From the NCBI GenBank assembly GCA_028283025.1, contig JAPYNO010000045.1, forward strand, positions 13,895 through 77,894: 64,000 nt of DNA, read 5' to 3'. Shown here piece after piece: positions 3,523 through 57,787 of this stretch. Numbering within the stretch: position 1 is the first letter of the stretch; each line of letters starts with the position of its first letter. Source of the DNA: Pseudomonadales bacterium. GTDB taxonomy: Bacteria; Pseudomonadota; Gammaproteobacteria; Pseudomonadales; Azotimanducaceae. The position numbers were made by a program, and so were the translations under genes. The notes under the pieces were generated by a model that had not been told where the DNA came from, made no database searches, and saw nothing but the letters and a program-made list of their open reading frames with translations.

Positions 3523-3609
3523 ATCAGCTTGCGTAAGACTATGATCAGATGCCTGCAATGGGAGTTAAAGCGTTATATTTGATTCATAAAATCGTATAAG
3601 GCATCATAT

Positions 3610-3930
3610 ATGACTTTTTATGGTTATATAAAGATGCGTTACATACAACCTCGAGTTCGAACTGCTTTGGTGGAGCTTGGTGCCGATCTATCAATTGCTC
3701 GACGAAGACGGCGCATTCTTCAAATTGATCTCGCACGCGCATTACAAATCTCTCGGAAAACGCTTCAGAGACTTGAAGCGGGGGATCCGGGCGTGAGTCT
3801 TGGCGTGTTTGCGAGCGTGTGCGCCGCACTTGGACATATCAACGAACTCCGTGAGTTCGTCTATCGACTTGAGCGTGATACAGCCTTGCTCTCCGACCCC
3901 CCGCCAGAGCGCATACGCAGACGCACATGA
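3610..3930 (+). CDS. hipB: XRE-family HTH antitoxin, HipB-like
   Basis: HTH segment LQIDLARALQISRKTLQRLEAGDPGVSL. ATGA overlap with the hipA start (3927-3930). An alternative start exists at 3634 (MRYIQPR). The local sequence is AT-rich. Confidence 0.7.
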   Translation: MTFYGYIKMRYIQPRVRTALVELGADLSIARRRRRILQIDLARALQISRKTLQRLEAGDPGVSLGVFASVCAALGHINELREFVYRLERDTALLSDPPPERIRRRT

Positions 3931-4952
3931 AAGCACATACACACGTCTATAGAGAAGAAACGCCGGTCGGCGAACTCATCTTCGAAATGAAAGGCAACAA
4001 GCAAGGTTCTGCATTTCGATATACACCGGCATGGATGAGAGAGGGATTTGCAATCGATCCACATGTCCCATTACGTGAAGGGTGGCATCATCAGTGGCAA
4101 TCAGGCGACAACCAACAGGCATTTCTCGGTGCAATCTCTGATTGCATACCAGATTCATGGGGCCGAAAACTGATTGCAGCACAACTTGGCCATCAGCCAA
4201 ATGAGTTCGAAGCGCTCATGTCTGTCAATGATGCAACTCGTATCGGCGCATTACGCTTTCTCAATGCACAAGGTGTTCCATCGACACATTCAACCAACAC
4301 ACCACAGATACAGGATTTGGCTGAGATACAATCTTTATGCCAAATGATTGAACTCGGTGACAAGGATGCCGCGCGCGCTCTATGTGGTCGAGGCGACAGC
4401 CTTGGTGGGGCAAGACCCAAATCAGATTACATCGATCAATCAGAGACACTCTACCTCGCCAAATATACAACTGAACGCGACACACTCCCAATCACTCGAA
4501 TGGAAGTCGCAACACTCAACCTCGCAGAAGAAGTTGGCTTGCGTGCTGCAAAAGCACAACTCGCACTTCCCCATGACCCCCATCCAATCGCATTGATTGA
4601 ACGATTCGACCGTGCAGGTGCGTCTCGTATACCGTATATCTCAGCACAGAGTTTCATTGGGGCAGCAGGGCAGTATTACAGTGAGATCGCAGAACAACTT
4701 ATCAGCACCTCAACACAATCTTTCATCATCGAAGCGAGGGAGTTGTTTGAACGCCTTCTATTCACAATCCTTGTTCACAACACAGACGATCATTTGAAGA
4801 ATCACGGATTACTGTATCTCGATGATCACTGGGTCTTGTCACCACTCTTTGATGTCAACCCACAACCAGAACGACACCCGCAACTGAAAACAGGCATCAG
4901 CCCATCTGCCGGATTCGAACACCTTGATCATCGAGCCAGAGTGCTAAAATAA
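3927..4952 (+). CDS. hipA: HipA-family Ser/Thr kinase toxin (short, 341 aa)
   Basis: The N-terminal coupling domain reads [24 protein letters not shown]. The Gly-rich loop reads [11 protein letters not shown], the catalytic loop [11 protein letters not shown], and LSPLFDVNP follows. The protein ends about 25 aa after DVNP, shorter than the typical HipA C-terminus. Confidence 0.8.
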
Positions 4953-5010
4953 ATCGCTTTGGCCAGCGCATTTTCACTCGTGCGCGACGCCCCCTCACAA
5001 AAGGCAACCT

Positions 5011-7671: not shown

Positions 7672-8740
7672 TTTCACTGGCGGCCCGGCGGCCCTGCCGG
7701 AAGCTGTGCTTCAGCGTGCGGCGAGCGAGCTGCTCGATTTTCGTGGCATAGGCGCATCGGTGATGGAGATCAGCCATCGAAGTGCCGAATTCTCGCGTAT
7801 CGTGGAAGAGAGCGAGGCGACGCTTCGCAGGCTCATGCGCATTCCTGACGACTATGCGGTATTGTTTCCGCAAGGCGGCGCGACTGGCCAATTCGCAGCA
7901 ATCGTGCTGAATCTCGTCAAATCGGAAGCTGGCGAAGTGCCTTGTTATGTCGATACGGGCTACTGGGCATCGCGCGCGGTGAAGGAAGCGAAACGTTACG
8001 GCGATGCGGTGATCGTCGCATCCTCGAAGGCGCAAAACTATCGCCAAATCCCTGATCCTTCGACCTGGCATGTGCCTGACAATGCCGCCTTCTTGCACGT
8101 CACTTTGAACGAAACCATCGGCGGCGTGGAATATCAGAGCGACCCGCCCACCGATGTGACCCTGGTCGCCGATGCCTCTTCAAATATTCTGTCTCGGCCT
8201 ATCGATGTGTCGCGCTACGGCGTGATCTACGCCGGTGCGCAAAAGAACCTTGGGCCATCTGGCATCGCCATCACGATTGTTCGCAAGTCGTTGCTTGGTC
8301 GTGGTGATCGCCCTATCCCGACTATCCTTGACTACACAACCCTTGAACAAGGTCGCTCCATGGCCAACACGCCGCCGGTGTTCGCCTGGTATATCGCGGG
8401 CCTCGTGTTCGATTGGGTTGAATCTGAAGGCGGTGTCGAAGTCATGGCGAAGCGCAACGACCGCAAAGCGCAGCGGCTGTATGCATTTCTCGATCAAAGC
8501 GGCTTCTATCAGAACAAGGTGGCCAATGCGTTTCGGTCGCGCATGAACGTGCCATTTATTTTGCAGGATGAATCGCGTACACAGGCGTTCTTGGCGGCGG
8601 CGCGTGATGCCGGCTTCATTGGCCTTGAGGGTCACCGCAGTGTTGGTGGCGTGCGCGCGAGCCTCTACAACGCAATTCGGGAAGCTTCAGTCGAAGCGCT
8701 CGTGAACTTCCTCGACGAATTTGCTTCGAGCGCACCATGA
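7658..8740 (+). CDS. serC: Phosphoserine aminotransferase
   Basis: ORF 7595..8740, trimmed to [18 protein letters not shown] (ATG at 7658). It overlaps the gyrA end by 14 nt. The gyrA-serC-pheA order is conserved. Confidence 0.9.
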
Positions 8741-9828
8741 CCAATGAGTTGGGGAAAGTTCGTGCCCGTATCGATGAGATCGACCGAGCCTTGCAATCGC
8801 TTCTCAATGAACGCGCGAGCGCTGCGCTTGAAGTCAGTCGCATCAAAGCCGCGCAGCTCGCCACTAGCGAACAGGCGGTGTACTACCGACCGGAGCGCGA
8901 GGCGCAAATCCTGCGTCGTATTCAGGAAAGCAACCGAGGTGATATGCCGCCGGAAGTGATGGCGCGCCTGTTTCGCGAGATCATCTCGTCGTGCCTATCG
9001 CTCGAATCGCCCTTGTCGGTGGCCGCGCTCGGCCCCGCGGGCACATTCACCGAACAGGCGGCAGTCAAGCATTTTGGCCATTTCGCGCGTATCGAGCCGC
9101 TGTCTTCGATTGATCAGGTATTCCGCGAAGTCGAATCCGACGCAGTGCATTATGGCGTGGTGCCAGTCGAAAACACGACCGAAGGCATGGTCAACCAAAC
9201 CCTTGACTGCCTCATGGATTCACCTTTGGGGCTGTGCGGTGAAGTCGAGCTGCGCGTGCATCAAATGCTCTTGGGGCGCGAAGATTGCGAGCCTGCACAA
9301 GCCACCGAGATCGTGTCACATCAGCAATCGCTCGCGCAAACGAGAGCTTGGCTCGATCTTCACTATGCCGAATTGCCGAGGCGCACCGTAGCGAGCAATG
9401 GCGAAGCGGCGCGTCTTGCCGCTGAATCACCCGAACGCCTTGCCATTGGCGGGCTGCGCGCGGCGGAAATTCATGGCCTGAAGGTGTTTGAACGCAATAT
9501 CGAAGACTTTCCAGACAACAAGACGCGATTCGTCGTCATCGGTAAAACCTTGGCTGGCGCAAGCGGCGAAGACAAAACGTCCATCTTGGTGACGGTGAAG
9601 AACGAGCCCGGTGCGCTCTATCACATCCTTGAGCCCTTCCATACGCTTGGCGTGAGCTTGACGCGCCTAGAGACTCGGCCATTAAGGAGCGGAAGCTGGT
9701 CATATGCATTCTTTATTGATTTCAGCGGACACAGGGACGAGCCACGCATTGAGGACGTGCTGAGGCAAGTGGGCGAGAACGTCGTCAACTTGCGTGTCCT
9801 TGGCTCTTATCCGGCAGCGGCTATCTGA
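8737..9828 (+). CDS. pheA: Bifunctional chorismate mutase / prephenate dehydratase (P-protein)
   Basis: The N-terminal chorismate mutase helix reads LGKVRARIDEIDRALQSLLNERA. The dehydratase core has the TRF motif (DNKTRFVVIG). The ACT domain reads ILEPFHTLGVSLTRLETRP. ATGA overlap with serC. Confidence 0.92.
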   Translation: MTNELGKVRARIDEIDRALQSLLNERASAALEVSRIKAAQLATSEQAVYYRPEREAQILRRIQESNRGDMPPEVMARLFREIISSCLSLESPLSVAALGPAGTFTEQAAVKHFGHFARIEPLSSIDQVFREVESDAVHYGVVPVENTTEGMVNQTLDCLMDSPLGLCGEVELRVHQMLLGREDCEPAQATEIVSHQQSLAQTRAWLDLHYAELPRRTVASNGEAARLAAESPERLAIGGLRAAEIHGLKVFERNIEDFPDNKTRFVVIGKTLAGASGEDKTSILVTVKNEPGALYHILEPFHTLGVSLTRLETRPLRSGSWSYAFFIDFSGHRDEPRIEDVLRQVGENVVNLRVLGSYPAAAI

Positions 9829-9837
9829 GGCGTATCG

Positions 9838-10659
9838 ATGCAGCGACTTGGCCTTGTCGGCACGGGCATGATTGGCGGTTCGTTCGCACTTGCGCTGCGC
9901 GAGGCAGGCGAAGTGCGCGAGGTCATCGGATATGACGCCAACACGAAAGCTGTGCGAGAGGCCATCACGCTTGGTGTGGTTGACAAGCGCGCCATCTCGA
10001 TCGGCGAACTCACTCGAGTATGTGATGCGATTTTGGTGGCGGTGCCTGTCAATGAAACAGCTTCATGCGTGCAAGCTTGCCTCGATGCAGGCGCACAGTT
10101 CGTGATGGAGGCGGGCAGCGTCAAACGGCAAGTGTTCGAGGCGCTCGGTGAGCGCGTCAAGACAAGATTTGCATCGGTACATCCGATCGCCGGTAGCGAC
10201 AAGTCAGGCCCGAGCGCAGCGCGTGCGGATATGTATCAGGATCGCGTCCTGGTCGTGATCTCAGAAGGCGAGCAACGCTTGCGGCAGCAGGCGAGCGCGC
10301 TCTGGTCGGCGTGCGGGTCGCAGGTCATAGAGATGGACGCGCAATCGCACGATGCAACGCTTGCGCTCACCAGCCACTTGCCGCATCTGCTTGCCTTTAG
10401 CCTCATGAGGCTTGTGTCAGAGGGCGAGCCGCATTCATTGAAGCCATTGATGGGGCCGGGGTTCCGTGATTTCACGCGCCTTGCACGCGCTGATGATCGT
10501 ATGTGGCAGGCTATTTTTGAGGCCAATCGCGACGTGCTCGACGCCGAAATCACGCGCTATCAAGCTGAACTTGAAGCCATGCGAAAGCGCATCAACGACA
10601 CAGATGCCATGCGCGCTGCGCTTCGTGAAGCGACCGCGACGTTCGCCGTGCTACAGTAG
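9838..10659 (+). CDS. tyrA: Prephenate dehydrogenase
   Basis: Rossmann motif LGLVGTGMIGGSFALAL, followed by HPIAGS and SHLPHLLAF. Confidence 0.85.
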   Translation: MQRLGLVGTGMIGGSFALALREAGEVREVIGYDANTKAVREAITLGVVDKRAISIGELTRVCDAILVAVPVNETASCVQACLDAGAQFVMEAGSVKRQVFEALGERVKTRFASVHPIAGSDKSGPSAARADMYQDRVLVVISEGEQRLRQQASALWSACGSQVIEMDAQSHDATLALTSHLPHLLAFSLMRLVSEGEPHSLKPLMGPGFRDFTRLARADDRMWQAIFEANRDVLDAEITRYQAELEAMRKRINDTDAMRAALREATATFAVLQ

Positions 10660-10737
10660 AAAAACCTCTTTTTCCTCGCGTTCTTGGTAGGAAGAATGTC
10701 ATCTGATGCTCTTGTTGGCGAATAGAAGGAGCCCCAC

Positions 10738-11607
10738 ATGAACGCCAAAAAATATAAGGAAGTAAACGGCTTGAAAATGGCTTATGTCGAGGCAGGGCAG
10801 GGCAGTTCGCCAAGCATTGTGTTTCTGCACGGCAATCCGACTTCATCCTATCTTTGGCGGAACATCATGCCGCATGTCGCGGATCTTGGCCGCTGCATCG
10901 CACCGGACTTGATTGGCATGGGCGATTCGGACAAGCTGCCGGACTCAGGGCCGGAGCGCTACACCTTCGTCGAGCATCAACGCTATCTCGATGGGCTGCT
11001 TGATCAACTCAGCCTCGGCAATGAGGTGGTGCTCGTCATTCATGACTGGGGATCGGCGCTTGGGTTTGATTGGGCAAGACGGCATCCGCAGCGCGTCAAG
11101 GGCGTCGCCTACATGGAGGCGATTGTTCGGCCGATGCGCTGGTCAGATTGGAACGAGGCGGCGCGGCCTGTCTTTCAAGGCTTGCGCTCGAGCGCAGGCG
11201 AGCAGATGGTGCTTGAGAAGAACATCTTTGTGGAGCGCGTGCTGCCAGGCTCCATCGAGCGCCAGCTGAGCGATGATGAAATGGCAGAGTACAGGCGCCC
11301 ATTCTTGAGTCCCGGCGAAGACCGGCGCCCAACGCTCACTTGGCCGCGCCAGATTCCGCTCGACGGTGAGCCAGAGGATGTGGTGCAGATCGTGGAAGCC
11401 TATGCGCGCTATTTCTCGGCGAGCGATCTGCCGAAGCTGCTCGTGAGTGCCGAGCCGGGCGCGATTCTGATCGGCGAGCAGCTTGAGTTTTGTCGCGCTT
11501 GGCGCAATCAGACGGAAGTCACCGTCGCTGGCAGCCATTTCATTCAAGAAGACTCCGCAGAGGAAATTGGCAGCGCACTGCGAAGCTGGCTGCAGCGTAT
11601 CGCGTGA
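10738..11607 (+). CDS. Haloalkane dehalogenase, HLD-II type (DhaA/LinB-like alpha/beta hydrolase)
   Basis: [13 protein letters not shown] supplies the Asn, [10 protein letters not shown] the Asp-Trp, YMEAIV the Glu and GSHFIQEDS the His. AGGAG lies 7 nt before the ATG. Confidence 0.85.
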
Positions 11608-12269
11608 CAGAGTTTCAGTGCGACTCGGGTTTAAGGGCGCTCGTTCGCGAACGATTGCGGACCTTTGACACGCGCCGTGAGGTGATGGTCGGTAAAGGCA
11701 GCGCCGTTGCGCTCGCCATCACGGATGCGGGGCACGGCGGCAATGTGCCTGGCTTGGCCAAGCATTCAGCGTGGAGCAATGATGCGGCCATTATCATGAC
11801 GCGGCGCGCCTCACATCTTCGCAGCCACGCAGGTCAATGGGCGTTTCCGGGCGGACGCATGGATGAGGGAGAAAGGCCCGAGGAAACCGCGCTTCGTGAG
11901 ATGCGCGAGGAAATTCATCTTGACCTTGGCATGGCGCACGTCATTGGCAGGCTCGACGATTTCGAGACGCGCTCTGGCTATGTGATGACGCCGGTCGTCT
12001 TCTGGGCAGGCCCTCAGCGCTCAATGAAAGCCAATCCGCACGAAGTCGCTTCCATTCACCGCATCCCGCTCGCTGAATTAACGCGCGCCGATGCGCCGCT
12101 CCTGACGCAGATTCCCGAAAGCGAGCAGCCTGTGCTGAGGATGCCGATTGGCGAATCGTGGATTGCAGCGCCCACTGCTGCGCTCCTCTATCAGTTCCGT
12201 GAAGTCTGCCTCTTTGGACGCGCAACGCGCGTCTCGCATTTTGAGCAACCTTATTTTGCTTGGCGCTGA
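11604..12269 (+). CDS. NUDIX hydrolase, CoA pyrophosphatase-like
   Basis: Nudix box [34 protein letters not shown] start at 11604 would overlap the dehalogenase stop (GTGA). An ATG alternative exists at 11685. Confidence 0.75.
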
Positions 12270-49520: not shown

Positions 49521-49861
49521 CCAATTTAGCCGAAGCCTCGTGCGAGGCGTGCCATCAAGACGCGCCGCCTGTGGAAGGCGCTGAGCTTTCCGCCCTACTT
49601 ACAGAGCTGCCCGAATGGCGGCACGAAACGGTGGAAGGCGTGCCGCGGCTCAGTAGGGACTATCAATTCAAGAACTTTCTCGAGGCGATTGCCTTTACCA
49701 ATGCGGTCGGAGTCATTGCCGAAGAACAAGGCCACCACCCTGCGCTGCTCACCGAATGGGGCAGCGTGCGCGTTTCATGGTGGACACACAAGATCAGAGG
49801 CTTGCACCGGAACGACTTTGTGATGGCGGCGAAGACCGATCGCGCTTACGACAGCTGCTGA
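49517..49861 (+). CDS. phhB: Pterin-4-alpha-carbinolamine dehydratase
   Basis: 114 aa. [23 protein letters not shown] is the PCD signature. ATGA overlap with the preceding gene. Confidence 0.85.
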
Positions 49862-50897
49862 CCGCGCTGGCGAGATTCTCAAGGCAGGCGAGGCTGTCGT
49901 CCCAGCCAAGGCACGCATCCGTGATACTTTGTCCAAAGACAAGATCCTCTCCTTTTTCAAGCGCTTGCCGCCCTTCAATGAGATTGCTTTCAATCATCAC
50001 GCCCATGAGGTGCGAGCCGCCTTGCTTGAGATAGCTGCACAAAGAGTCACAGACATCTATTTGACGCTTGTACTGTTTTTCGCTGTTTGCGTGGCTCGTG
50101 TCAACCATCAAGCGCGTGGGCAGTTCAGCGCTTCGAAGCTGCTCGGCGCAGGCCTCCATGCTGCTTGCATCGAAGTTGGTGCGACCGCCGCCACCACGCA
50201 GGATGACATGGCAGTCGTCGTTGCCTTTGGTTGAGAAGATCGCCGAGTGCCCGTGCTTGGTGACGGATAAAAACACATGCGGATACCAGGCCGAACGCAC
50301 CGCATCGACTGCGATTTGGGTGTTGCCTTGCGTGGAGTTCTTGAAGCCGACCGGGCAGGACAGCCCGGAGGCGAGCTGCCTGTGGACTTGGCTCTCGGTG
50401 GTGCGCGCGCCGATTGCCGCCCATGAGACGACATCGCCCAAGTATTGCGGTGAAATGGGATCAAGGTATTCGGTGCCAGCGGGCAGCCCAAGCTCAGTGA
50501 TGTCGCGAAGCAGGGCGCGGCCTCGCTTGAGCCCTTCGTTGATGTCGCAGGAATCATTGAGGTGTGGATCGTTCAGCAGCCCTTTCCAGCCGATGATCGT
50601 GCGCGGCTTCTCGAAATAGACGCGCATGATCACGAGCAGCTCGTTCTCAAAGCGATTCGCCTGCTCATACAAGCGCTCGGCGTAGACGAGCGCGGCCTTG
50701 GGGTCGTGAATCGAGCAGGGGCCGATGATGACCAAGAGGCGTGGGTCACTGCCGCGCAGCATGTCGCGAATCTGCGCTCGTGCCTCGAACACGACTTTGG
50801 ATGAGCGCTCGCTGAGCGGCAGTTCGGCCACTAGGTCGGCGGGCGCGATGACTTCCTCTTGTCCTGCAATGCGAGTGTCATCGGTGATATATCTCAT
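49794..50897 (-). CDS. 3-deoxy-7-phosphoheptulonate (DAHP) synthase, class I, paralog 2
   Basis: [10 protein letters not shown]..., [49 protein letters not shown] and [12 protein letters not shown]-terminal extension of about 15 aa overlaps the phhB 3' end on the opposite strand. Confidence 0.92.
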
Positions 50898-50898
50898 G
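50890..50898. repeat. 9-bp direct repeat TATCTCATG, left copy (candidate target-site duplication of the IS/ankyrin block)
   Basis: It sits immediately left of the IS terminal sequence CTACTGTCCGG (50899). An identical 9-mer lies at 53382-53390. Confidence 0.55.
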
Positions 50899-51244
50899 CT
50901 ACTGTCCGGTGAAATTATCGAATAAATTTAACTGTCTAGGGAGCGCGGAATTTTCGGAAGTGTAGCCGGTGTCTGTAAGTCTTTCATTCAACGGGATTTT
51001 TTCGAACAGCGTGACCGACAGGCCCTGTAGCAGGGTGTAAAGCGAGGCGTTGAGTCGAGGCGCTTCTGGCGATGGCCACGAGCAGGTGCACGGAGACGGC
51101 GGTCCTGCACCTTGACTGCGTTCTCCGATGTGCCGTGGAACTTCCTGATGCGTAGATGCTGCTTGATCCATTTGAAGAACAGCTCCACCTGCCACCAGGA
51201 TTTGTGCAGCTGGCAGACGGTCGGCGGCGGCTCGAAGAGGTTGG
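50899..51244 (-). mobile_element. Degenerate 3'-terminal fragment (~346 bp) of an IS4-family element
   Basis: It aligns by eye at roughly 90% identity, with indels that break the frame, to 52316-52670. That includes the terminal CTACTGTCCGG and the Y-2-R-3-E-6-K-encoding region. Homology stops at 51244. Confidence 0.8.
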
Positions 51245-51324
51245 CACTACCACACATGTTCGATCTAACATAATTCCAATTTCGAGACATGCATTCGGTC
51301 TATCTTGTGTCGTACTCACGACAT

Positions 51325-52284
51325 TTATTCTTCCGCGCCCGCTTCTCGTAGCGCCCACACAACGGCCGCATTGCCTCTTTTTTCCGCCACGTCAAGCGGC
51401 GTACTGCCGGCTTCGGCCTTGGCGTTCACGTCCGCGCCCGCCTCGATTAGCAGTTCCGCTAAGTCCCAGTGCCCATGCAATGCCGCATCGTGAAGTGGCG
51501 TTCTGCCGTAGTCGTCCTTGGCATTCACGTCCGCGTCTGCTTCGATCAGCAGTTCCGCTATGTCCGCTTTGCCCTGGAATGCCGCCCCGTGAAGCGGCGT
51601 AGCGCCGCCGTCGCCCTTGGCGCTCACGTCCGCACCTGCTTGGATCAGATCATCCGCTATCAGCGCATGTTTTTTGTCCGCATCGTTCTCCTTGCCGTAA
51701 CGCTTTCCCAGCATTCGTAGATGAAGCGGTGTGTTCCCATGCTCGTCCTTGGAGTTCACGTCCGCGCCCGCCCCAATCAGCACACGCACCACGTCCGCAT
51801 GTCCTACAAACGCTGCATAGACAAGCGGCGTTCTGCCGCTGTCGTGCTTGGCGTTCATGTCTGCGCCCGCCTCGATCAGAATTTCCACCATGTCCACTTT
51901 GCCCTGGAGTGCCGCCCTGTGAAGCGGTGTAGCGCCGTCGTCATCCTTGGCGTTCATGTTCGCGCCTGCCTCAATCAGCATTTCCACCATGTCCGCTTCG
52001 CCGGACTCTGCCGCCGCGTGAAGCGGCGTATAGCCACCTTTGTATTTGGCGTTCACGTCCGCGCCTTCCTTGATCAGCTTCCACGCCTCTTCTAGCCTGC
52101 CATTGTGTACCGCAAGATGTAGCTCAGTCCCACCAAGCCTTGCAAAGCAAAACACCACCAGAACAGTCAAGGACACAAGAAGAAGAAGAAGAAGAAGAAG
52201 AAGAAAGGTAGACCATACCCAGCCTAGAAATATAAACAGTACCGCTAATGCTACTAGGGTAATAATCCGTTTCATATTCTTCAT
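51325..52284 (-). CDS. Membrane-anchored ankyrin-repeat protein (about 7 ANK repeats)
   Basis: Repeated G.TPLH.AA..G..D...LLIEAGADVNAKD units. The N-terminal hydrophobic segment includes L9. The start is uncertain: ATG at 52284 or 52275, while the track GTG at 52314 lies inside the IS inverted repeat. Confidence 0.85.
   Translation of the reverse strand: MKNMKRIITLVALAVLFIFLGWVWSTFLLLLLLLLLVSLTVLVVFCFARLGGTELHLAVHNGRLEEAWKLIKEGADVNAKYKGGYTPLHAAAESGEADMVEMLIEAGANMNAKDDDGATPLHRAALQGKVDMVEILIEAGADMNAKHDSGRTPLVYAAFVGHADVVRVLIGAGADVNSKDEHGNTPLHLRMLGKRYGKENDADKKHALIADDLIQAGADVSAKGDGGATPLHGAAFQGKADIAELLIEADADVNAKDDYGRTPLHDAALHGHWDLAELLIEAGADVNAKAEAGSTPLDVAEKRGNAAVVWALREAGAEE
52177..52203. repeat. 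Trinucleotide repeat (AAG)9 on the plus strand, equal to (CTT)9 in the ankyrin gene, encoding Leu9
   Basis: Read directly from the sequence. It is in frame within the predicted N-terminal TM segment FLLLLLLLLLVSL. Confidence 0.95.
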
Positions 52285-52313
52285 TCGTCTATTCCCATTG
52301 TTTCTTTTCCTCA

Positions 52314-53380
52314 CACTACTGTCCGGCGAAATTATTCGATAAATTCAACTGTCTAGGGAGCGTGGAATTTTCGGAAGTGTAGCCGGTGTCTGTTAAGTCG
52401 TTCATTCAACGGGATTTTTTCGAACAGCGTGACCGACAGGACCTGTAGCAGAGTGTGAAGCGAAGCGTTGATGCTGAGGCGCTTCCTGGCGATGGCGACG
52501 AGCAGGTGCACGGAGACGGCAGTCCAGATCTGCACCTTGACCGCGTTCTCCGATGTGCCGTGGAACTTCCTGATGCGTAGATGCTGCTTGATCCATTTGA
52601 AGAACAGCTCCACCTGCCACCGGGCCTTGTACAGCTGGCAGACGGTCGGCGGCGGCTCGAAGAGGTTGGTCAGGAAGACCAGCGTCCTGCGCGTGTCTGG
52701 GTCCTTGAAGCGAATGCGCCGCAGGTGCCGCGGATAGTGCCTGCGGGTGTCGGCACCCGTCGTCGCCACGGTCTGGTCGCAGACGATCCCCTGTTCGCGG
52801 TCGCTCGGCGCCGAGTAGACGCGCCGGAGGCCGGTGTTCGACTTGGCGCGCGTGACGAAGAACGCGCCCGCCTCGTCGAGCGCGCAGAGGCGCTTGAAGT
52901 CGAGGTAGGCGCGGTCCATCACATAGATGGCCGCGGGCTCGGGGATCATGAGGTCGAGGACATTGATGTCATGCAGCCTGCCGTCGGAGACATGGATGAA
53001 GCTCGGGATGTTGCCGCGCAGGTCGAGCAGGGTGTGCATCCTGACCGCCGCCTTGGTGGCGCGGAACGACGCCCAGGGGAACAGCGACAGGCAGAGGTCG
53101 ATGGTGGTGGAGTCCAGTGCGTACACGGTGTTCGACAGGCCCACTGCCAAGGACTCCTCGGCGCGCATCTCCCGCGCCTGCGCGATGAGCCGCTGCGCGA
53201 AGTCGGCGTAGATCCGCCAGTCGCGCCGCTCGTTGGCGTCGGCCAGGGTGGAGCGCCTGACCGGCGAGCGGATGCCCATGTGGTAGAGCTTGGCCGACTG
53301 CGCCGACAGGCAGGCCTCGATGTCGCGCAGGCTTTCCCTGTAGGTCAACTGCACCTTCAGAAGTTAACCGGACAGTAGTG
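52314..53380 (-). mobile_element. IS4-family insertion sequence (1067 bp) with perfect 13-bp terminal inverted repeats, internally 5'-deleted
   Basis: CACTACTGTCCGG lies at 52314-52326 and its reverse complement CCGGACAGTAGTG at 53368-53380. The 9 bp directly flanking this copy differ (TTTTCCTCA versus GTATCTCAT), so this copy has no target-site duplication of its own. Confidence 0.8.
52353..53354 (-). CDS. IS4-family DDE transposase, apparently lacking the N-terminal ~50 aa
   Basis: Signature YKARWQVELFFKWIK (Y-2-R-3-E-6-K), plus VMDRAYLDF. The ORF begins with GTG at ...QLTYRESLRDIEACL, a segment that in full-length relatives as I recall them lies about 50 aa inside the protein. An in-frame TAA sits just upstream, next to the inverted repeat. 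Confidence 0.7.
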   Translation of the reverse strand: MQLTYRESLRDIEACLSAQSAKLYHMGIRSPVRRSTLADANERRDWRIYADFAQRLIAQAREMRAEESLAVGLSNTVYALDSTTIDLCLSLFPWASFRATKAAVRMHTLLDLRGNIPSFIHVSDGRLHDINVLDLMIPEPAAIYVMDRAYLDFKRLCALDEAGAFFVTRAKSNTGLRRVYSAPSDREQGIVCDQTVATTGADTRRHYPRHLRRIRFKDPDTRRTLVFLTNLFEPPPTVCQLYKARWQVELFFKWIKQHLRIRKFHGTSENAVKVQIWTAVSVHLLVAIARKRLSINASLHTLLQVLSVTLFEKIPLNERLNRHRLHFRKFHAP

Positions 53381-53390: not shown

Positions 53391-56279
53391 CTATTTGGCT
53401 TCGCTTGGCTTGGTGCTTTTTCCGCCGTGCACCGATGGTTCGCAACACCACTTGGTGCGAAGTACGTCGAATTTGTCAAGATATTTCTCAGAGATACCGA
53501 GTATTTCGAAGATTCGCTCGTCAAGGTGCTTTCTTGCATCGTCTTGATAGGCTTCGTTGGCGGGCAGGAAGCAACTCGCCTTGAGTTCTTCAAAGGCATC
53601 TGCGAATTGCTTGTGCTGCACATCGCTCAAGGCTGCGCAGTCGATGGTGGGTAGATTTGGGAGCTTGGCTGTAGTCAAGCGAGATCGGCCTTGCTGCTGG
53701 CGAGTGCCGTGCCACCAGAAGAGCATCAGGCCAAGAGTTGAATTCCCCCAAAGTAGCAAAGGCATCTCATAAGCTTCATTCATTGGCAACAGGTTCGGCC
53801 AAGCGGTGCCACCGAGAGTCGAATGTGGCGTCAGGCATACGGCAACCGATTGTGAGTTGAGCTGGAAATCGAGGTTGTGATGCAATCGGGAGGCGTATTT
53901 CTGCCACATCTCGACAGCCCTCTGTTTGCAGCCTGTCCTCTCGATGCCTTCTGTGTCTGGGTGAACGATGAATTGCCGTTCTCTTTGTGCATTGTGCGCC
54001 CAGAGCACTGGGTAGGTCGGCACGCCGCTGTCTCGAATCTCCTCGATATCAAATGCGCCTCTGCCGTTGCTGCCATTGATGTCACGATGCATAAGACCTC
54101 GCCTTGCCACCTTATCCATGCTCGTCAAAGGCACGGCGTGGGCAGTGCGCGAGCGCGGCAATACGAGCGTGCCTTCGCACAGCGCCATGAGCGCATCGAT
54201 GAGACTCGAGTCGCGAATCCCTGCGGGATAGAACTTGGCGCCAGTCTCGCGTGGCATTGGGCGCATATGACCCTTTGCGAACTCGTGCGCTTCAAGGCGG
54301 GTTTGCGGTCTCTGCGTCAAGTTCGCGAAATGCACCGTCTTCGAGTGAGTTCCGCCGCCATCGATTTTGGTGGCGAGCACGAGGCATTCGGCCATGCCTG
54401 TGTCTGCCGAAAAAGCGCGGTCGGTATCGCCTGATGCGGCAATAGAGACGATGGTGATGTCGGAATAGTTGCGGGAAAGCGCTTTGCGGGCATTGTCCCA
54501 ACTCTCGCCAGAGGCAAACGAAAACGGCAGAACGAGTGCGAGTACGCCGCCTTCCTTGAGTTTGTCGTGCGCGAGGTCCATGAAGTTGGACGCAAGGCCG
54601 GCGTTTCCATGCCCAAATTGTCTGCTCGGTTGCTCTCTTAGCCGATTCGCCATTTCTCGCTGTTCGTCCTTGGATGTCGCGAACCCCGCAAACGATGGCA
54701 CCGGTACCCCTAGCTCACCTTCGTGGTTAGTTGGCCGCGTGAATGGCGGGTTCATAATCACCAAATCAAAAGTGCCGTGCCCGACCGGGAAGCCTCTGCG
54801 GTCTCCAACCGGCCTCGTGCCTGTGCCTGTCATCCGCTGCCCTGACACTTCGATTTCCTCGCTTGCGCCACTTTGCGCAAAGAGGTTCGTCGCGCTCAGC
54901 TCGGTTGTCCTCAAATCGAGTGCGCCGATGTAGATTCTGTTGCGCTCCGCTTGGATGCGCTTGGAAACCGCTTCATCGGTTCCATACGGCATGACGTGCA
55001 CGAGCGAATCGTGGTAGATGACGTCAGGGTGTGCGCTTGACAGCATTGATGTCGCAAGGTGCGCCGCCGCTGGCATGATGTCAGTGCCTACAAACACATT
55101 TTCCATGAAGTGCTTGTGCAGCGCCTCGTCATCGAGTCCGGAGCGCCGGATTTTGCGATAGACCGCCGATTGCACAGCGGATAGCAGCGTGCCGGTGCCG
55201 CACGCGAAGTCGGCGATCTTGAGCGCTTTTACGGCAGCCTCATCGGCCCAATCTACTTGCATGCGCTGGGCGGCAAGTTCTGCGAGCAACGCAGCAGATT
55301 CCGGCAGCGTGTAGAAGGTGGCGAGGAATTTTCGATCAGCGATGAGCGTTTGGAACATTCTCGCGCCAAGATCATGGAAAGTAGTGGCGCCGAGTTTTTT
55401 GAGTGAGGTTGCTACGGCATCGGCTCTATCCATGAGCTCGACGGCATCCCGCGTGGTCAGCTCATAGGCAAGATCATGCGCAATGCTAAAGATAGGCCAA
55501 TAGTTCACTTCTAGTATCTTTCTCCAGTTTCGCTTCACCCATCTGGGATTAAAAGACCCCGTTGCGCCCAAGGCGCTCTCAACGCTCGGGATGCCGGTGC
55601 GCCCTTCGATCGCGTGGTGAAACACAAACGCATTGATGATGATCGCCACAGCCATTCTCACTGTCTGCTCGCCGGGCTCTTGGTGCAGGACATCGCCGAG
55701 CGCATCAAGCGATGCAAAGGTTTGGCGAAGCACATGGCTTGCTTGGGAGACCCCAAGAAAAAGCGTTTCAGCGCCTTCAACAATTCGCTTCTCGGAAAGC
55801 GATGCGATTTCGACCGCATCGGCAAGGTCATCAACGCCGCCTTCGAGCCATCCGGTGATATGCTTCGGCCACCGCAGGATGCGACTGTTCGTGCCGAGCT
55901 GGTAGATGGCGTACTTAAAGCGAGATTGGGCAATGCCGGCGGCCGTCAAGCCTTGCGGCCATTTCACTGCGATTGCGGCCTCGATGACGGCGCCTCTGTC
56001 GCCGACCTGAAGACCGATACGTTCTTTCGTTTGCTTATGTAGCGCCCTGTTGACGCTATTGGCGCTCGGTGCTTCAAACTTGGTTTCGATTGCGACTGGC
56101 TGCGCGCCAGGGGAATTCACCAACACATCGAGCCTCAGCATGGATTTGCCTTGAATCGTGCCGGTGGAGTCGATGTGCACATTGCCTTCGTTCCATAGCG
56201 GATGCCGCTTAATGAGCAATTCGCCGAGCTTGGCGTTCAGCACCTCTTCGCGCTGTTTAGGTGTTGGGATTGTGGCCAC
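53391..56279 (-). CDS. 962-aa fusion of a PD-(D/E)xK-like N-terminal region, a gamma-class N6-adenine DNA methyltransferase core and a large unassigned C-terminal domain (Type IIG/IIL-like)
   Basis: Motifs read directly: aa 322-327 FYTLPE; aa 357-363 DFACGTG (nt 55191-55211); aa 510-513 NPPF (nt 54741-54752); aa 51-67 D-x13-E-T-K. GTG start with no clear SD. The MTase call is strong. The nuclease call is inference. Confidence 0.65.
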   Translation of the reverse strand: MATIPTPKQREEVLNAKLGELLIKRHPLWNEGNVHIDSTGTIQGKSMLRLDVLVNSPGAQPVAIETKFEAPSANSVNRALHKQTKERIGLQVGDRGAVIEAAIAVKWPQGLTAAGIAQSRFKYAIYQLGTNSRILRWPKHITGWLEGGVDDLADAVEIASLSEKRIVEGAETLFLGVSQASHVLRQTFASLDALGDVLHQEPGEQTVRMAVAIIINAFVFHHAIEGRTGIPSVESALGATGSFNPRWVKRNWRKILEVNYWPIFSIAHDLAYELTTRDAVELMDRADAVATSLKKLGATTFHDLGARMFQTLIADRKFLATFYTLPESAALLAELAAQRMQVDWADEAAVKALKIADFACGTGTLLSAVQSAVYRKIRRSGLDDEALHKHFMENVFVGTDIMPAAAHLATSMLSSAHPDVIYHDSLVHVMPYGTDEAVSKRIQAERNRIYIGALDLRTTELSATNLFAQSGASEEIEVSGQRMTGTGTRPVGDRRGFPVGHGTFDLVIMNPPFTRPTNHEGELGVPVPSFAGFATSKDEQREMANRLREQPSRQFGHGNAGLASNFMDLAHDKLKEGGVLALVLPFSFASGESWDNARKALSRNYSDITIVSIAASGDTDRAFSADTGMAECLVLATKIDGGGTHSKTVHFANLTQRPQTRLEAHEFAKGHMRPMPRETGAKFYPAGIRDSSLIDALMALCEGTLVLPRSRTAHAVPLTSMDKVARRGLMHRDINGSNGRGAFDIEEIRDSGVPTYPVLWAHNAQRERQFIVHPDTEGIERTGCKQRAVEMWQKYASRLHHNLDFQLNSQSVAVCLTPHSTLGGTAWPNLLPMNEAYEMPLLLWGNSTLGLMLFWWHGTRQQQGRSRLTTAKLPNLPTIDCAALSDVQHKQFADAFEELKASCFLPANEAYQDDARKHLDERIFEILGISEKYLDKFDVLRTKWCCEPSVHGGKSTKPSEAK

Positions 56280-56311: not shown

Positions 56312-56908
56312 CTACAAGTATATCGCATTAAGCAAAGCATCGAGTGCTTTGATGAGCAATTGATGCTCGCCTGCCTTGACCCGCGCTTCAAGCGCGCTTG
56401 GGGTGTCGCCTGGCAGCACCGGAATCGAATTGTGCATGATGATAGGGCCGCGGTCATAGACCTCATCGACATAGTGAATCGTCGAACCCGTGACGGCTTC
56501 GCCTGCATTGATGACAGCCTCGTGAACGCGGCGACCATAGAATCCTTGTCCGCCGTATTTTGGCAACAGGGCAGGGTGGCAATTGATGACCCGGCTTTGA
56601 AAGGCGCTTAGCGTCTTCGGGCCGATCAATCGCATGTAGCCTGCGAGCACCACGAGATCAACCTTGGCGTTTTTCAAGACACGGGTCATGGCCGCATCGA
56701 GTGACGCTGCATCGCCGTGCGTTTGGCGGCTCATGTGTGATGCGAGAATGCCATGCTTGCGCGCGCGAGCAAGCGCACCGGAATCACTGTTGTTGCTGAT
56801 GACGATGCTCACCTCGGCGTTCAGCCGAGCAGATTCGCACGCATCGACCACTGCCTGCATGAGGCTGCCCTCGTGCGATGCGAACAGGGCGAGCCTAGCT
56901 TTATCCAT
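56312..56908 (-). CDS. purN: Phosphoribosylglycinamide formyltransferase
   Basis: VVLAGYMRLIGP and INCHPALLPKYGG, followed by GSTIHYVDEVYDRGPII, parallel E. coli PurN. Confidence 0.8.
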   Translation of the reverse strand: MDKARLALFASHEGSLMQAVVDACESARLNAEVSIVISNNSDSGALARARKHGILASHMSRQTHGDAASLDAAMTRVLKNAKVDLVVLAGYMRLIGPKTLSAFQSRVINCHPALLPKYGGQGFYGRRVHEAVINAGEAVTGSTIHYVDEVYDRGPIIMHNSIPVLPGDTPSALEARVKAGEHQLLIKALDALLNAIYL

Positions 56909-56947: not shown

Positions 56948-57787
56948 TCATGAGCGATTGATGAGGAAATTAGCCGTGTGCCAGATTTCCATATGCGGCC
57001 AGTCGCCCTCAAGGACGGCCATGTACAAGCGTAGATACTCATTGCCGCGTCGCCGCCACTTGGCTTCCGGCGTGGCTATTAATCGGTATGTTTGACCGAC
57101 GCGAAGCGTTTGGCGCACGACGAAGTGCGTCTCCAAATGAAGCCACGCTGGCATCACGAAGCGCCCGGTGAGCGCGCGGTTGGCAAGGTCCATCCACAAG
57201 CGGGGATGAATGATGCCAGCCTCCCACAGCGAAAGGTCTTTTGCGTGCGCCCCGGCAGAGGTGACGTTTTCCTCGTGGCTTGGTGTCCAAGCAATTTCGG
57301 CAAAGGCCTCGCCGGGGCGGACACCTGCCCACCTGATCTCGCGCCGCACTGTTCTTCGATTTGATGCGCGAGCTCGACTGAAAGGATTCGCCTCCGGCAT
57401 CTGATCGAGAAAACTGAGCTTCAGCTTTGAGAGTATCGTGCCTTGTGCATTGCGACAGGCGAGGCAGATGTGCGACTTGCTGCTCGATTTCTGATCGGGC
57501 GCTATGTGAAGCGCATCGCCATCATAGGCAGGACGGATCAGCCTCATGCTGACTTCGGTGCCGGAAAGCCATGTATCTTCAAAGGTTTGCGTCAATAATT
57601 CGCTCATATGCCCGAACAGGTGCGCACCTGAAACGAGCGCGCCTTCAAATCCGTGCTCGCGCGCCACATCGTCCGCATGAATGCGATTGACCGTGTTCGT
57701 GTCTTCATTGATCGCATACGCAGTCAACGGCGAAGAAGGAAACATCTTGATGAGATTCATCTTCGCTTTCTTCGGCTCAGCTGCCAT
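56948..57787 (-). CDS. MaoC-like / hotdog-fold protein
   Basis: NRIHADDVAREHGFEGALVSGAHLFG resembles the MaoC dehydratase motif. The 279-aa size fits a double hotdog. The start overlaps the dctM end by 11 nt, and an alternative ATG lies at 57760. Confidence 0.5.
   Translation of the reverse strand: MAAEPKKAKMNLIKMFPSSPLTAYAINEDTNTVNRIHADDVAREHGFEGALVSGAHLFGHMSELLTQTFEDTWLSGTEVSMRLIRPAYDGDALHIAPDQKSSSKSHICLACRNAQGTILSKLKLSFLDQMPEANPFSRARASNRRTVRREIRWAGVRPGEAFAEIAWTPSHEENVTSAGAHAKDLSLWEAGIIHPRLWMDLANRALTGRFVMPAWLHLETHFVVRQTLRVGQTYRLIATPEAKWRRRGNEYLRLYMAVLEGDWPHMEIWHTANFLINRS

What the first reader, a model, noticed from the sequence alone, without database searches (positions are those of the whole stretch)
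53391..56279. Stand-alone 962-aa nuclease-like::N6-adenine methyltransferase fusion, a divergent single-polypeptide R-M or an undescribed defence gene
Read directly from the ORF: FYTLPE (aa 322-327), DFACGTG (aa 357-363) and NPPF (aa 510-513), in the order expected for a gamma-class amino-methyltransferase. Upstream of that core, aa 51-67 read D-VLVNSPGAQPVAI-E-T-K, which has the spacing of a PD-(D/E)xK nuclease core. About 330 aa after the MTase core carry no motif I can name and could be a target-recognition domain. There is no helicase, no separate R, S or second M gene, and no BREX/DISARM-type partner in the flanks. The neighbours are purN on one side and the IS/ankyrin block and a DAHP synthase on the other. 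By eye the gene is AT-richer than the backbone. The architecture resembles MmeI-like Type IIG/IIL enzymes. However, the N- and C-terminal sequences do not resemble MmeI as I remember it, so the family may be divergent or new.
Basis: partly seen in the sequence, partly recalled or inferred. Interest (0 to 1): 0.7.

Follow-up and report, generated by a model that had tools for sequence, protein, structure and literature searches.

The report
Stand-alone nuclease–methylase restriction enzyme gene
This gene most likely encodes a one-protein restriction-modification enzyme, with a DNA-cutting domain, an adenine methylase and a DNA-reading domain in one chain; the design is well known, but this large sequence family has no annotated or characterised member in any resource searched.

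Summary

**Structure.** An AlphaFold model (pLDDT 81, pTM 0.83) best matches BpuSI (Type IIG), DrdV (Type IIL) and BREX PglX/BrxX. It has five parts laid out as in MmeI:
- nuclease, aa 1-162
- helical spacer, aa 163-315
- gamma-class m6A methylase, aa 316-640
- variable domain, aa 641-880
- helical tail, aa 881-962

**Nuclease domain.** It folds as alpha-beta-beta-beta-alpha-beta. E11, D51 and E65 are about 99% conserved in 270 homologs. Position 67 is K (83) or E (183), so the site reads D..ExK or BamHI-like D..ExE.

**Variable domain.** Paralogs within one genome are 90-99% identical up to aa 640 but only 59-77% identical in aa 641-760. That is the pattern of a target-recognition domain.

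**Partners.** No partner gene recurs in 80 loci (139 immediate neighbours).

**Family.** It is large (946 clusters at 50% identity), unannotated, spread over more than 10 phyla and often multi-copy or tandem. The MAG names suggest sponge symbionts.

**Corrections.** The gene is not AT-rich (56.5% vs 57.6% GC). In this lineage it sits at a conserved position between purN and a DAHP synthase gene.

**Verdict.** A new sequence family of a known kind (single-chain Type IIG/IIL R-M). Activity is untested.

The parts
53391..56279 (-). Whole ORF, 962 aa plus stop, GTG start. Putative single-chain Type IIG/IIL-like restriction-modification enzyme.
   Evidence: ORF and translation; full-length homologs, 2794 hits. 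AF2 model, pLDDT 81.3, pTM 0.83. Foldseek top hits BpuSI, DrdV, BrxX/PglX.
55794..56279 (-). aa 1-162: N-terminal PD-(D/E)xK-fold nuclease domain (H11-25, E34-38, E50-54, E62-68, H73-87, E101-107 ...).
   Evidence: domain model pLDDT 94.2; weak to moderate structural hits, almost all PD-(D/E)xK nucleases; best is a BFVD COG5377 phage endonuclease, E=3e-4, prob 0.98; no Pfam match; 946 clusters carry the domain, always at the N-terminus.
56127..56129 (-). Codon of D51, the putative metal-binding Asp at the start of beta-2.
   Evidence: Invariant in A1, A2 and A3. D in 263 of 264 family sequences.
56079..56087 (-). Codons of E65-T66-K67, the ExK motif on beta-3.
   Evidence: E65 in 266 of 268 sequences. 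Position 67 is K in 83 and E in 183.
55335..55793 (-). aa 163-315: all-helical spacer between the nuclease and the methylase.
   Evidence: secondary structure (H163-187 ... H298-314). The position matches the MmeI helical spacer, residues 156-300 (PMC4833311).
54360..55334 (-). aa 316-640: gamma-class N6-adenine methyltransferase domain. Motif X is FYTLPE (55299-55316), motif I is DFACGTG (55191-55211), motif IV is NPPF (54741-54752). Loops at aa 462-494 and 516-526 are variable and low-confidence.
   Evidence: Pfam Eco57I PF07669, 31.3 bits against a cutoff of 25.3. PADLOC MTase_II 3.3e-15; motifs invariant; pLDDT.
53640..54359 (-). aa 641-880: alpha/beta region after the methylase, the putative target-recognition domain. 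It is most variable in aa 641-760.
   Evidence: highest column entropy at aa 641-720; paralogs and syntenic orthologs diverge here while the rest stays similar; no Pfam match. CamA (methylase plus DNA-recognition domain) aligns with TM 0.64 normalised to the target.
53391..53639 (-). aa 881-962: C-terminal helical bundle with strongly conserved motifs (LPANEAYxD, WCxEPSVHGGK), then the stop codon.
   Evidence: A907-A910, W944, C945 and E947-K954 invariant; helices 886-951. [quoted passage not shown]

Best explanation
The gene encodes a self-contained, single-polypeptide restriction-modification enzyme of the Type IIG/IIL design. It belongs to a large sequence family that no resource searched here annotates or describes.

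**Proposed mechanism**
- The variable domain (aa ~641-880), together with variable loops of the methylase, reads a short asymmetric DNA sequence.
- The gamma-class methylase (aa 316-640, FYT-LP / DFACGTG / NPPF) flips an adenine in that site and methylates N6 using AdoMet. This marks host DNA as self.
- On unmethylated foreign DNA, the N-terminal PD-(D/E)xK domain (E11, D51, E65, K67) cuts at a fixed distance from the site. The ~150-aa helical spacer holds it there. Cutting probably needs two enzyme molecules, since there is one catalytic site per chain.
- One recognition domain directs both activities, so swapping or mutating it changes restriction and protection together. This would explain the mosaic paralogs.

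**Shown here**
- The fold and domain order.
- Conservation of the catalytic residues in both enzymatic domains.
- Diversification concentrated in the putative TRD.
- Absence of any conserved partner gene.

**Inferred, not shown**
- Actual cleavage.
- The cut distance.
- Single-strand (IIL-type) modification.
- The recognition sequence.
- An anti-phage role.
For: **Architecture.** The full-length AF2 model has pLDDT 81.3 and pTM 0.83. Its best PDB matches are:
- BpuSI, Type IIG, 8e-16
- DrdV, Type IIL, 5e-15
- BrxX/PglX
- CamA
- LlaBIII
- BsaXI

All have probability 1.00. The domain boundaries parallel those of MmeI: 1-155, 156-300, 301-620, 621-825 and 826-919 (PMC4833311).

**Methylase.**
- Pfam Eco57I scores above its gathering cutoff.
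- PADLOC MTase_II gives 3e-15.
- The motifs are invariant.

**Nuclease.**
- The domain model has pLDDT 94 and an alpha-beta-beta-beta-alpha-beta core, with D51 at beta-2 and E65/K67 on beta-3.
- Nearly all named structural neighbours are PD-(D/E)xK nucleases.
- Conservation: E11 256/257, D51 263/264, E65 266/268. Position 67 is K or E in all but two sequences.
- These residues are also kept in 24-37% identical homologs, including plasmid-borne ones.

**TRD.**
- Column entropy peaks at aa 641-720.
- Three paralogs in one Bryobacterales genome are 85-93% identical in aa 1-640 but 61-69% in aa 641-760.
- One tandem pair in L063 (the second and third of its three tandem copies) is 97/99/90% identical in the nuclease, spacer and methylase, against 59/74/65% in the three C-terminal segments.
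- The tandem pair in L077 is 98/99/95% against 71/74/74%.
- The syntenic ortholog P0009 is 60-70% identical elsewhere but 37.5% in aa 641-760.

**Stand-alone.**
- Clustering of flanking ORFs in 80 loci found no shared neighbour.
- No Pfam or PADLOC family occurs in more than 2 of 139 immediate neighbours.
- Several genomes carry multiple copies.
Against: - No biochemical or methylome data exist for any member.
- Against solved structures, the isolated N-terminal domain gives no match at E<=1e-3. Only 2 BFVD matches reach that level. The nuclease assignment therefore rests on topology, conserved residues and an enrichment of weak hits.
- Sequence similarity to characterised IIG/IIL enzymes is marginal.
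- In the window's lineage the gene sits in a housekeeping-looking run with very short gaps. The gap to purN is 32 bp here. In L001 the gaps are 22 bp to purN and 16 bp to the DAHP synthase gene.
- The locus is syntenic down to 61% identity. That is unusual for a mobile defence gene and would also fit a domesticated methylase.
- Most family members have E rather than K at position 67.
Confidence: 0.7

Rival explanations
1. It is a solitary (orphan) adenine methyltransferase. The N-terminal PD-(D/E)xK-fold domain no longer restricts DNA and serves instead as a DNA-binding or regulatory module. The enzyme would act in epigenetic regulation, or in protecting the chromosome against other nucleases.
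For: - The locus purN-[gene]-DAHP synthase is fixed and syntenic in three related genomes (L001, L002, L011).
- Divergence of the gene tracks that of its neighbours: 81% and 61% identity for the gene, against 80% and 67% for purN and 89% and 76% for the DAHP synthase.
- The intergenic gaps are tiny.
- GC content equals that of the backbone.
- PADLOC's best hit is 'MTase_II', not a IIG model.
- Distant plasmid homologs lie in conjugative-transfer regions, where orphan methylases are common.
Against: - Near-invariance of E11, D51, E65 and K/E67 over 270 sequences from more than 10 phyla is hard to explain without catalysis or metal binding.
- Diversification of the recognition domain among paralogs and tandem copies is typical of restriction specificity races, not of regulatory methylases.
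- The nuclease domain is never lost in full-length members.
Confidence: 0.17
2. It is the methylase and specificity subunit of a multi-gene defence system (BREX/PglX-like, MADS/MAD2-like, or Type ISP/Type I-like). Its partners would be encoded elsewhere in the genome.
For: - There are structural matches to BrxX/PglX and LlaBIII.
- There are weak profile hits to PADLOC mad2 (1e-12) and PglX, and to the NCBIfam PglX and MAD2 models.
Against: - NCBIfam scores are far below the family cutoffs: PglX 15.7 against 500, MAD2 15.6 against 720.
- No BREX, MADS or helicase gene lies in the window flanks.
- No partner recurs in 80 loci or 139 immediate neighbours.
- The protein carries its own nuclease-fold domain, which PglX lacks.
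- Three dispersed copies in one genome each lack partners.
Confidence: 0.05
3. It is a mobile-element cargo gene: a plasmid or ICE-borne methylase-nuclease that helps the element establish itself or acts as an addiction module. Here it would have been captured by the chromosome.
For: - Homologs occur on plasmids next to T4SS or PRTRC genes.
- 40-50% identity across more than 10 phyla implies lateral transfer.
- Integrases or transposases flank some copies.
- An IS lies directly downstream in the window.
Against: - The IS/ankyrin block is an insertion specific to this window. It is absent from the syntenic L001 and L002 loci.
- The window gene shows no compositional anomaly.
- This reading concerns how the gene spreads rather than what it does, so it is compatible with the R-M mechanism.
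Confidence: 0.08

Closest known systems
MmeI-family Type IIL enzymes (MmeI, NmeAIII, DrdV; PDB 5HR4, 7LO5, 7LVV)
   Same: - One chain of about 920-1010 aa.
- Same order of five modules: PD-(D/E)xK nuclease, helical spacer of about 150 aa, gamma-class m6A methylase, TRD, C-terminal helical bundle.
- DrdV is among the top fold matches.
- No second methylase and no partner genes.
- Family members keep overall similarity while differing in the TRD.
   Different: - There is no significant full-length sequence similarity. DrdV gives E=0.014 on one 57-residue stretch, and the profile search finds nothing below E=0.5.
- The motif spacing differs: D-x13-ExK here, D70-x9-E80-x-K82 in MmeI.
- Most members of this family have ExE.
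- The C-terminal motif WCxEPSVHGGK marks this family; whether MmeI-family enzymes have it was not checked.
- Cut distance and single-strand modification are untested.
BpuSI / Eco57I-type Type IIG enzymes (PDB 3S1S; Pfam PF07669)
   Same: - BpuSI is the best structural match of the whole model (8e-16).
- The Pfam Eco57I methylase model is the only curated family passed (31.3 bits against 25.3).
- Both have an N-terminal nuclease, a helical connector, a methylase and a TRD.
   Different: - Only 12% identity in the structural alignment. TM is only 0.33-0.36 for the whole chain because the domains are oriented differently.
- The N- and C-terminal domains match no Pfam family.
- PADLOC Type IIG models score only E>=9e-5.
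BREX PglX/BrxX methyltransferase (PDB 8C45, 9EWZ)
   Same: - Gamma-class methylase and TRD core of the same fold.
- Weak motif-I similarity.
   Different: - PglX has no nuclease domain and works only with other BREX proteins.
- NCBIfam PglX scores 15.7 against a cutoff of 500.
- There are no BREX genes nearby.
BamHI-type PD-(D/E)xK active site (Asp94, Glu111, Glu113; from my own knowledge of the literature)
   Same: Two thirds of this family carry D..ExE instead of D..ExK (183 E against 83 K). BamHI likewise has Glu in place of the canonical Lys.
   Different: - The protein contexts are unrelated. BamHI is a small homodimeric Type IIP enzyme.
- The window's own protein has the canonical K67.

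Membership tests
Type IIG/IIL single-polypeptide R-M enzymes (functional class) | Nuclease and methyltransferase domains in one polypeptide. | tested here: met
   The model shows a PD-(D/E)xK-fold domain (aa 1-162) and a gamma-class methylase (aa 316-640) in one ORF. The catalytic residues of both are conserved.
Type IIG/IIL single-polypeptide R-M enzymes (functional class) | A shared target-recognition domain in the same chain, with no separate S subunit. | tested here: inconclusive
   aa 641-880 is the hypervariable, paralog-diverging region, as expected of a TRD. No S gene lies nearby. The domain's fold could not be searched on its own, and no DNA-binding data exist.
Type IIG/IIL single-polypeptide R-M enzymes (functional class) | Demonstrated sequence-specific cleavage at a fixed distance, plus AdoMet-dependent methylation. 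| not testable with these tools
   This needs enzyme assays or methylome data.
MmeI family (Type IIL) as a sequence family | Significant similarity to MmeI-family enzymes along the whole length, including the nuclease and TRD (Morgan 2009, PMC2731913). | tested here: not met
   Against PDB sequences, DrdV gives E=0.014 on one short stretch. The profile search finds nothing below E=0.5. PADLOC IIG models score E>=9e-5 on partial stretches. The similarity is in fold only.
MmeI family (Type IIL) as a sequence family | [quoted passage not shown] | not testable with these tools
   Indirect only: a single methylase and a single TRD, no second methylase gene, and a spacer of similar length.
Pfam PF07669 Eco57I restriction-modification methylase domain | Score above the Pfam gathering threshold. 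| tested here: met
   31.3 bits against a cutoff of 25.3, aa 477-613. The same family is precomputed for many homologs.
Pfam PF02384 N6_Mtase (Type I HsdM-like) | Score above the Pfam gathering threshold. | tested here: not met
   19.4 bits against a cutoff of 20.4.
PD-(D/E)xK nuclease superfamily | Alpha-beta-beta-beta-alpha-beta core, with an acidic residue at the start of beta-2 and (D/E)xK on beta-3. | tested here: met
   Secondary structure is H11-25, E34-38, E50-54 (D51), E62-68 (E65, K67), H73-87, E101-107, at pLDDT 94. E11, D51 and E65 are about 99% conserved, and position 67 is K or E.
PD-(D/E)xK nuclease superfamily | Significant structural or profile similarity to known members. | tested here: inconclusive
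   PDB: no hit at E<=1e-3, but the weak hits include many PD-(D/E)xK nucleases: Exo5, MGME1, XisH, Cas4, Card1, Can2, NucS. BFVD: two hits at E<=1e-3, and nearly all named hits in the top 50 are PD-(D/E)xK nucleases. No Pfam nuclease model matches.
BREX PglX / MADS MAD2 / Alw26I-type methylases (NCBIfam) | Score above the curated NCBIfam cutoff, and presence of the system's partner genes. | tested here: not met
   PglX 15.7 against 500, MAD2 15.6 against 720, Alw26I 26.5 against 353.5. There are no partner genes.

The most novel reading that the evidence does not exclude
This may be an uncharacterised family of MmeI-like 'programmable' single-chain R-M enzymes that spreads laterally among phylogenetically unrelated bacteria of one habitat, apparently marine-sponge microbiomes. 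Specificity would be re-assorted by exchange of a recognition-domain cassette (aa ~641-880) between dispersed and tandem paralogs. That would amount to a built-in specificity-switching system. In the Azotimanducus lineage, one copy may have become a fixed chromosomal resident inside a housekeeping gene run.
Probability: 0.3. Interest if true: 0.6.

Novelty: new member of a known kind. Interest (0 to 1): 0.42.

Why it matters
**Enzyme discovery.** If active, the family offers hundreds of natural variants of a single-chain enzyme in which one domain sets both cutting and protecting specificity. There are 946 clusters at 50% identity and at least 574 genomic loci. MmeI became useful for engineering new specificities for exactly this reason.

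**Annotation gap.** PADLOC sees only an orphan 'MTase_II', NCBIfam scores are far below cutoff, and the nuclease and recognition domains have no Pfam model. Defence-system censuses probably miss this family or count it as a lone methylase.

**Symbiosis biology.** It would be a concrete, traceable example of the laterally shared R-M repertoire reported for sponge symbionts (PMC8163846). It carries clear signs of specificity diversification.

Tried and rejected
1. **Sequence searches against solved structures.** The single sequence and the 35-sequence profile gave only marginal hits: DrdV at 0.014 and PglX at 0.5. Sequence alone does not place the protein.
2. **Pfam on the isolated N-terminal, spacer and C-terminal segments** at E<=10. 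Nothing meaningful came back.
3. **Foldseek of the isolated nuclease domain against PDB**. No hit reached E<=1e-3. I used only the enrichment of nuclease folds among weak hits, together with the BFVD search.
4. **Compositional island.** Rejected.
5. **Conserved partner gene or operon.** Rejected after all-against-all clustering of flanking ORFs in 80 loci and Pfam and PADLOC scans of 139 immediate neighbours.
6. **Promoter and terminator scan around the gene**. There were no more sites than in shuffled sequence, so it was uninformative.
7. **Dinoroseobacter plasmid hits** (aa 711-930 only). These are an IS-truncated gene remnant, not a free-standing C-terminal domain.
8. **Phage records.** Haloviruses match only the spacer and methylase (aa 200-654, 27% identity). 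This gives no information on the nuclease or TRD.
9. **Literature searches** for Azotimanducus and for Eco57I plus sponge returned nothing.
10. **Not possible.** REBASE could not be queried.
Full report
**1. The observation**

The ORF exists as described. One search lists 53391..56279 on the minus strand, 962 aa, with a GTG start at 56279, the first start codon (ATG/GTG/TTG) after the preceding in-frame stop. Its translation carries FYTLPE at aa 322-327, DFACGTG at 357-363, NPPF at 510-513 and D51 ... E65-T-K67.

These are not chance strings. In an alignment of 35 homologs at 48-82% identity, every one of these residues except K67 is invariant.

- purN (56312-56908, 32 bp upstream on the same strand)
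- an IS4-type DDE transposase (52353-53354)
- an ankyrin-repeat protein (51325-52314)
- a DAHP synthase (49794-50897)
- a TRAP transporter and PntAB further upstream

One detail fails. The gene is not AT-richer in any meaningful way: its GC is 0.5646 against 0.5764 for the window, and several neighbours have the same or lower GC.

**2. What the protein looks like**

Curated libraries recognise only the methylase core.
- Pfam Eco57I (PF07669) scores 31.3 bits against a cutoff of 25.3. N6_Mtase falls just below its cutoff.
- NCBIfam models for Alw26I-type methylases, BREX PglX and MADS MAD2 score 15-27 bits against cutoffs of 353-720.
- PADLOC gives 'MTase_II' at 3e-15 and mad2 at 1e-12, but its Type IIG models reach only E>=9e-5.
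- The N-terminal 162 aa and the C-terminal 322 aa match no Pfam family, even at E<=10.
- Sequence searches of the PDB give only DrdV at E=0.014. The profile search finds nothing below 0.5.

Structure is far more informative. An AlphaFold2 model built on the 35-sequence alignment has mean pLDDT 81.3 and pTM 0.83. Its Foldseek matches in the PDB, all with probability 1.00, are:
- BpuSI (Type IIG), 8e-16
- DrdV (Type IIL), 5e-15
- BrxX/PglX
- CamA
- LlaBIII (Type ISP)
- BsaXI

Whole-chain TM scores are modest (0.3-0.45), as expected for multi-domain proteins whose domains sit at different angles. CamA, a methylase plus DNA-recognition domain, reaches 0.64 normalised to the target.

The secondary-structure map divides the chain into five parts:

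| Part | This protein (aa) | MmeI (residues; PMC4833311) |
|---|---|---|
| alpha/beta domain / nuclease | 1-162 | 1-155 |
| all-helical spacer | 163-315 | 156-300 |
| Rossmann-type methylase | 316-640 | 301-620 |
| alpha/beta domain / TRD | 641-880 | 621-825 |
| helical bundle | 881-962 | 826-919 |

**3. The N-terminal domain**

Modelled alone it is very confident (pLDDT 94.2, pTM 0.89). Its order is H11-25, E34-38, E50-54, E62-68, H73-87, E101-107. This is the alpha-beta-beta-beta-alpha-beta core of PD-(D/E)xK nucleases, with D51 at the start of the second strand and E65-x-K67 on the third.

Against the PDB, no single match reaches E<=1e-3. The weak matches nonetheless include many PD-(D/E)xK nucleases: Exo5, MGME1, XisH, Cas4 SSO0001, an alkaline exonuclease, Card1, Can2, NucS/EndoMS and the R2 endonuclease.

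Against predicted viral structures, the best hit is a COG5377 phage endonuclease (3e-4, probability 0.98). Nearly every named hit in the top 50 is a PD-(D/E)xK, YqaJ, Cas4-like, VRR-NUC or Mrr nuclease.

Conservation is the strongest argument. Counts over 270 family sequences:

| Position | Residue counts |
|---|---|
| 11 | E in 256 of 257 |
| 15 | N in 257 of 259 |
| 51 | D in 263 of 264 |
| 65 | E in 266 of 268 |
| 67 | E in 183, K in 83, other in 2 |
| 87 | R in 266 of 268 |
| 100 | E in 255 of 268 |

E11, N15, D51 and E65, and the K-or-E choice at position 67, also hold in homologs of only 24-37% identity, including plasmid-borne ones.

It is not met for D51 and E65. The K/E alternation at 67 has a precedent: from established knowledge of BamHI (Asp94, Glu111, Glu113), a D..ExE site can be catalytically competent. 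The window's protein has the canonical lysine.

I rate the nuclease-fold assignment as well supported. Nuclease activity is inferred.

**4. The region after the methylase**

Column entropy along the alignment is highest at aa 641-720. There are secondary peaks at aa 461-500, a low-confidence loop inside the methylase, and at aa 881-900.

Copies within one genome differ mainly here. Percent identity by region:

| Comparison | Regions up to aa 640 | aa 641-760 | aa 761-880 | aa 881-962 |
|---|---|---|---|---|
| Three dispersed copies, one Bryobacterales chromosome | 85-93 | 61-69 | 69-80 | 70-80 |
| L063, second vs third tandem copy (Hyphomonadaceae) | 97 / 99 / 90 | 59 | 74 | 65 |
| L077 tandem pair | 98 / 99 / 95 | 71 | 74 | 74 |
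| L026 pair | 92 / 94 / 94 | 77 | 97.5 | 100 |
| Window vs syntenic ortholog P0009 | 60-70 | 37.5 | 62.5 | 58 |

Where three values are given for the regions up to aa 640, they are nuclease / spacer / methylase.

This mosaic pattern, a conserved catalytic chassis with a diverged cassette, is what a target-recognition domain under specificity diversification looks like. It matches what Morgan et al. describe for the MmeI family (PMC2731913).

The last ~80 residues are among the most conserved parts of the protein (LPANEAYxD, WCxEPSVHGGK). They are therefore not part of the TRD. They occupy the position of the MmeI C-terminal helical bundle. Their role is unknown.

**5. Context and distribution**

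The gene has no conserved partner.
- Within the window's lineage it lies between purN and the DAHP synthase gene in three other genomes. These are L001 (81% identity), L011 (Candidatus Azotimanducus sp., 81%) and L002 (61%). The gaps are short (22 bp and 16 bp in L001) and there is no IS/ankyrin block.
- Its divergence tracks that of its neighbours. Identities in L001 and L002 are 80% and 67% for purN, 89% and 76% for the DAHP synthase, and 81% and 61% for the gene itself. This points to vertical inheritance at a fixed locus.
- Elsewhere it sits in unrelated contexts: next to McrBC, in IS-rich regions, or among metabolic genes.
- A scan of one genome per species found at least 574 loci.
- In the best 80 loci, clustering of flanking ORFs found no shared neighbour beyond generic transporter and sulfatase families in at most 8 loci.
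- No Pfam or PADLOC family occurs in more than 2 of 139 immediate neighbours.

The N-terminal domain profile finds 946 clusters at 50% identity (536 at E<=1e-10). The domain is always at the N-terminus. The proteins are either about 900-1070 aa long or look like contig-truncated fragments. All source names seen for these proteins are 'hypothetical protein' or, on plasmids, 'N-6 DNA methylase'.

The 80 best loci come from MAGs of more than 10 phyla at only 39-53% identity to the query. These include Acidobacteriota, Latescibacterota, Chloroflexota, Cyanobacteria, Gemmatimonadota, Bacteroidota/Rhodothermales, Spirochaetota, Actinomycetota, Binatia, and Alpha- and Gammaproteobacteria. This spread implies lateral transfer.

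Many record names point to sponge-derived MAGs: SB06xx_bin, RHO3_bin, CAR3_bin, Poriferihabitaceae and a Synechococcus SB0668 bin. This fits the report that R-M systems are enriched in, and laterally exchanged among, sponge symbionts (PMC8163846). I did not verify isolation sources, so the habitat association is an inference.

More distant full-length homologs (24-35% identity) occur on plasmids of Nitrosospira, Sulfuricystis and Aminobacter, near conjugation genes.

**6. Mechanism and rivals**

The best-supported reading (confidence about 0.7) is a self-sufficient Type IIG/IIL-like R-M enzyme. The TRD and methylase read an asymmetric site and methylate one adenine. The tethered nuclease cuts unmethylated DNA at a distance set by the helical spacer.

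*Shown:* fold, domain order, conserved catalytic residues in both enzymatic domains, TRD-type diversification, and the absence of partners.

*Inferred:* cleavage itself, its distance, one-strand modification, and the site recognised.

The main rival (about 0.17) is a domesticated solitary methylase whose nuclease-fold domain no longer restricts. The fixed housekeeping-like locus in this lineage favours it. The near-invariant active-site residues and the diversifying TRD argue against it.

A trans-acting multi-gene system (about 0.05) is disfavoured by the neighbourhood survey and by the far-sub-threshold PglX and MAD2 scores. A mobile-element origin (about 0.08) describes how the gene spreads and is compatible with the R-M mechanism.

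**7. Comparison with what is known, and novelty**

*What it works like:* MmeI/DrdV (Type IIL) and BpuSI/Eco57I (Type IIG).

*Membership:*
- It meets the architectural definition of the Type IIG/IIL class.
- It passes the Pfam Eco57I methylase model.
- It fails the sequence-similarity criterion of the MmeI family.
- It fails the curated PglX, MAD2 and Alw26I models.

It is therefore a new sequence family of a known kind, not a new kind of system. REBASE could not be consulted, so a prior listing as a 'putative Type IIG' cannot be excluded.

*Interest:* moderate. The design is textbook. The family is nonetheless large and unannotated, probably missed or mislabelled by defence-system finders, and rich in natural TRD variants and tandem arrays. 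It appears to be shared across phyla within one habitat.

Noticed in passing
window 50893-53380: Relative to the syntenic loci L001 and L002, about 2.5 kb is inserted between the methylase gene's stop codon and the DAHP synthase gene.
- A complete IS lies at about 52314-53380. It has 20-nt terminal inverted repeats (52314-52333 / 53361-53380), an IS4-type DDE transposase and GC 0.644.
- A ~350-bp partial second copy of one end of the same IS lies at 50893-51244. It is 90-96% identical to 52310-52669.
- The ankyrin-repeat gene (51325-52314) sits between the two copies.

The ankyrin gene therefore looks IS-bracketed, like a composite element.
   Followed up: partly
window 51325-52314 (-): A 329-aa protein made almost entirely of ankyrin repeats (33-aa / 99-nt periodicity; Pfam Ank 2e-61). 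It is a eukaryote-like repeat protein of the type reported as enriched in sponge symbionts. Another ankyrin gene lies near the homolog in L003.
   Followed up: no
L043 (Rhodothermales OZ244857.1) 14-11882; L042 (OY760427.1) 3997-12087: At least three to four head-to-tail copies of the homologous gene are 96-100% identical to one another. This is either a recent tandem amplification or a long-read assembly artefact. It contrasts with the diverged tandem copies in L063 and L077.
   Followed up: partly
L063 (Hyphomonadaceae OZ253505.1) 2815-12090; L077 5998-13931: Tandem arrays of 2-3 diverged paralogs share near-identical nuclease, spacer and methylase parts but have different C-terminal parts. 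The arrangement could allow recombinational exchange of recognition cassettes.
   Followed up: partly
window 56948-57787 (-): A 279-aa ORF with no Pfam match lies between dctM and purN. It is conserved in position and sequence (74% and 65% identity) in L001 and L002. It is a lineage-conserved gene of unknown function.
   Followed up: no
family-wide, position 67 of the query: The third catalytic-motif position is strictly K or E (83 against 183 of 268, with two exceptions). This splits the family into an ExK group, which includes the window, and an ExE group. I did not examine whether the split tracks a difference in activity or metal use.
   Followed up: partly
L009 (Dinoroseobacter shibae pDSHI04) 7001-7699: A fragment corresponding to aa 711-930 of the family is flanked by IS5, IS110 and IS3 transposases. 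It is a remnant of a disrupted copy on a plasmid and is conserved in three D. shibae plasmid records.
   Followed up: partly
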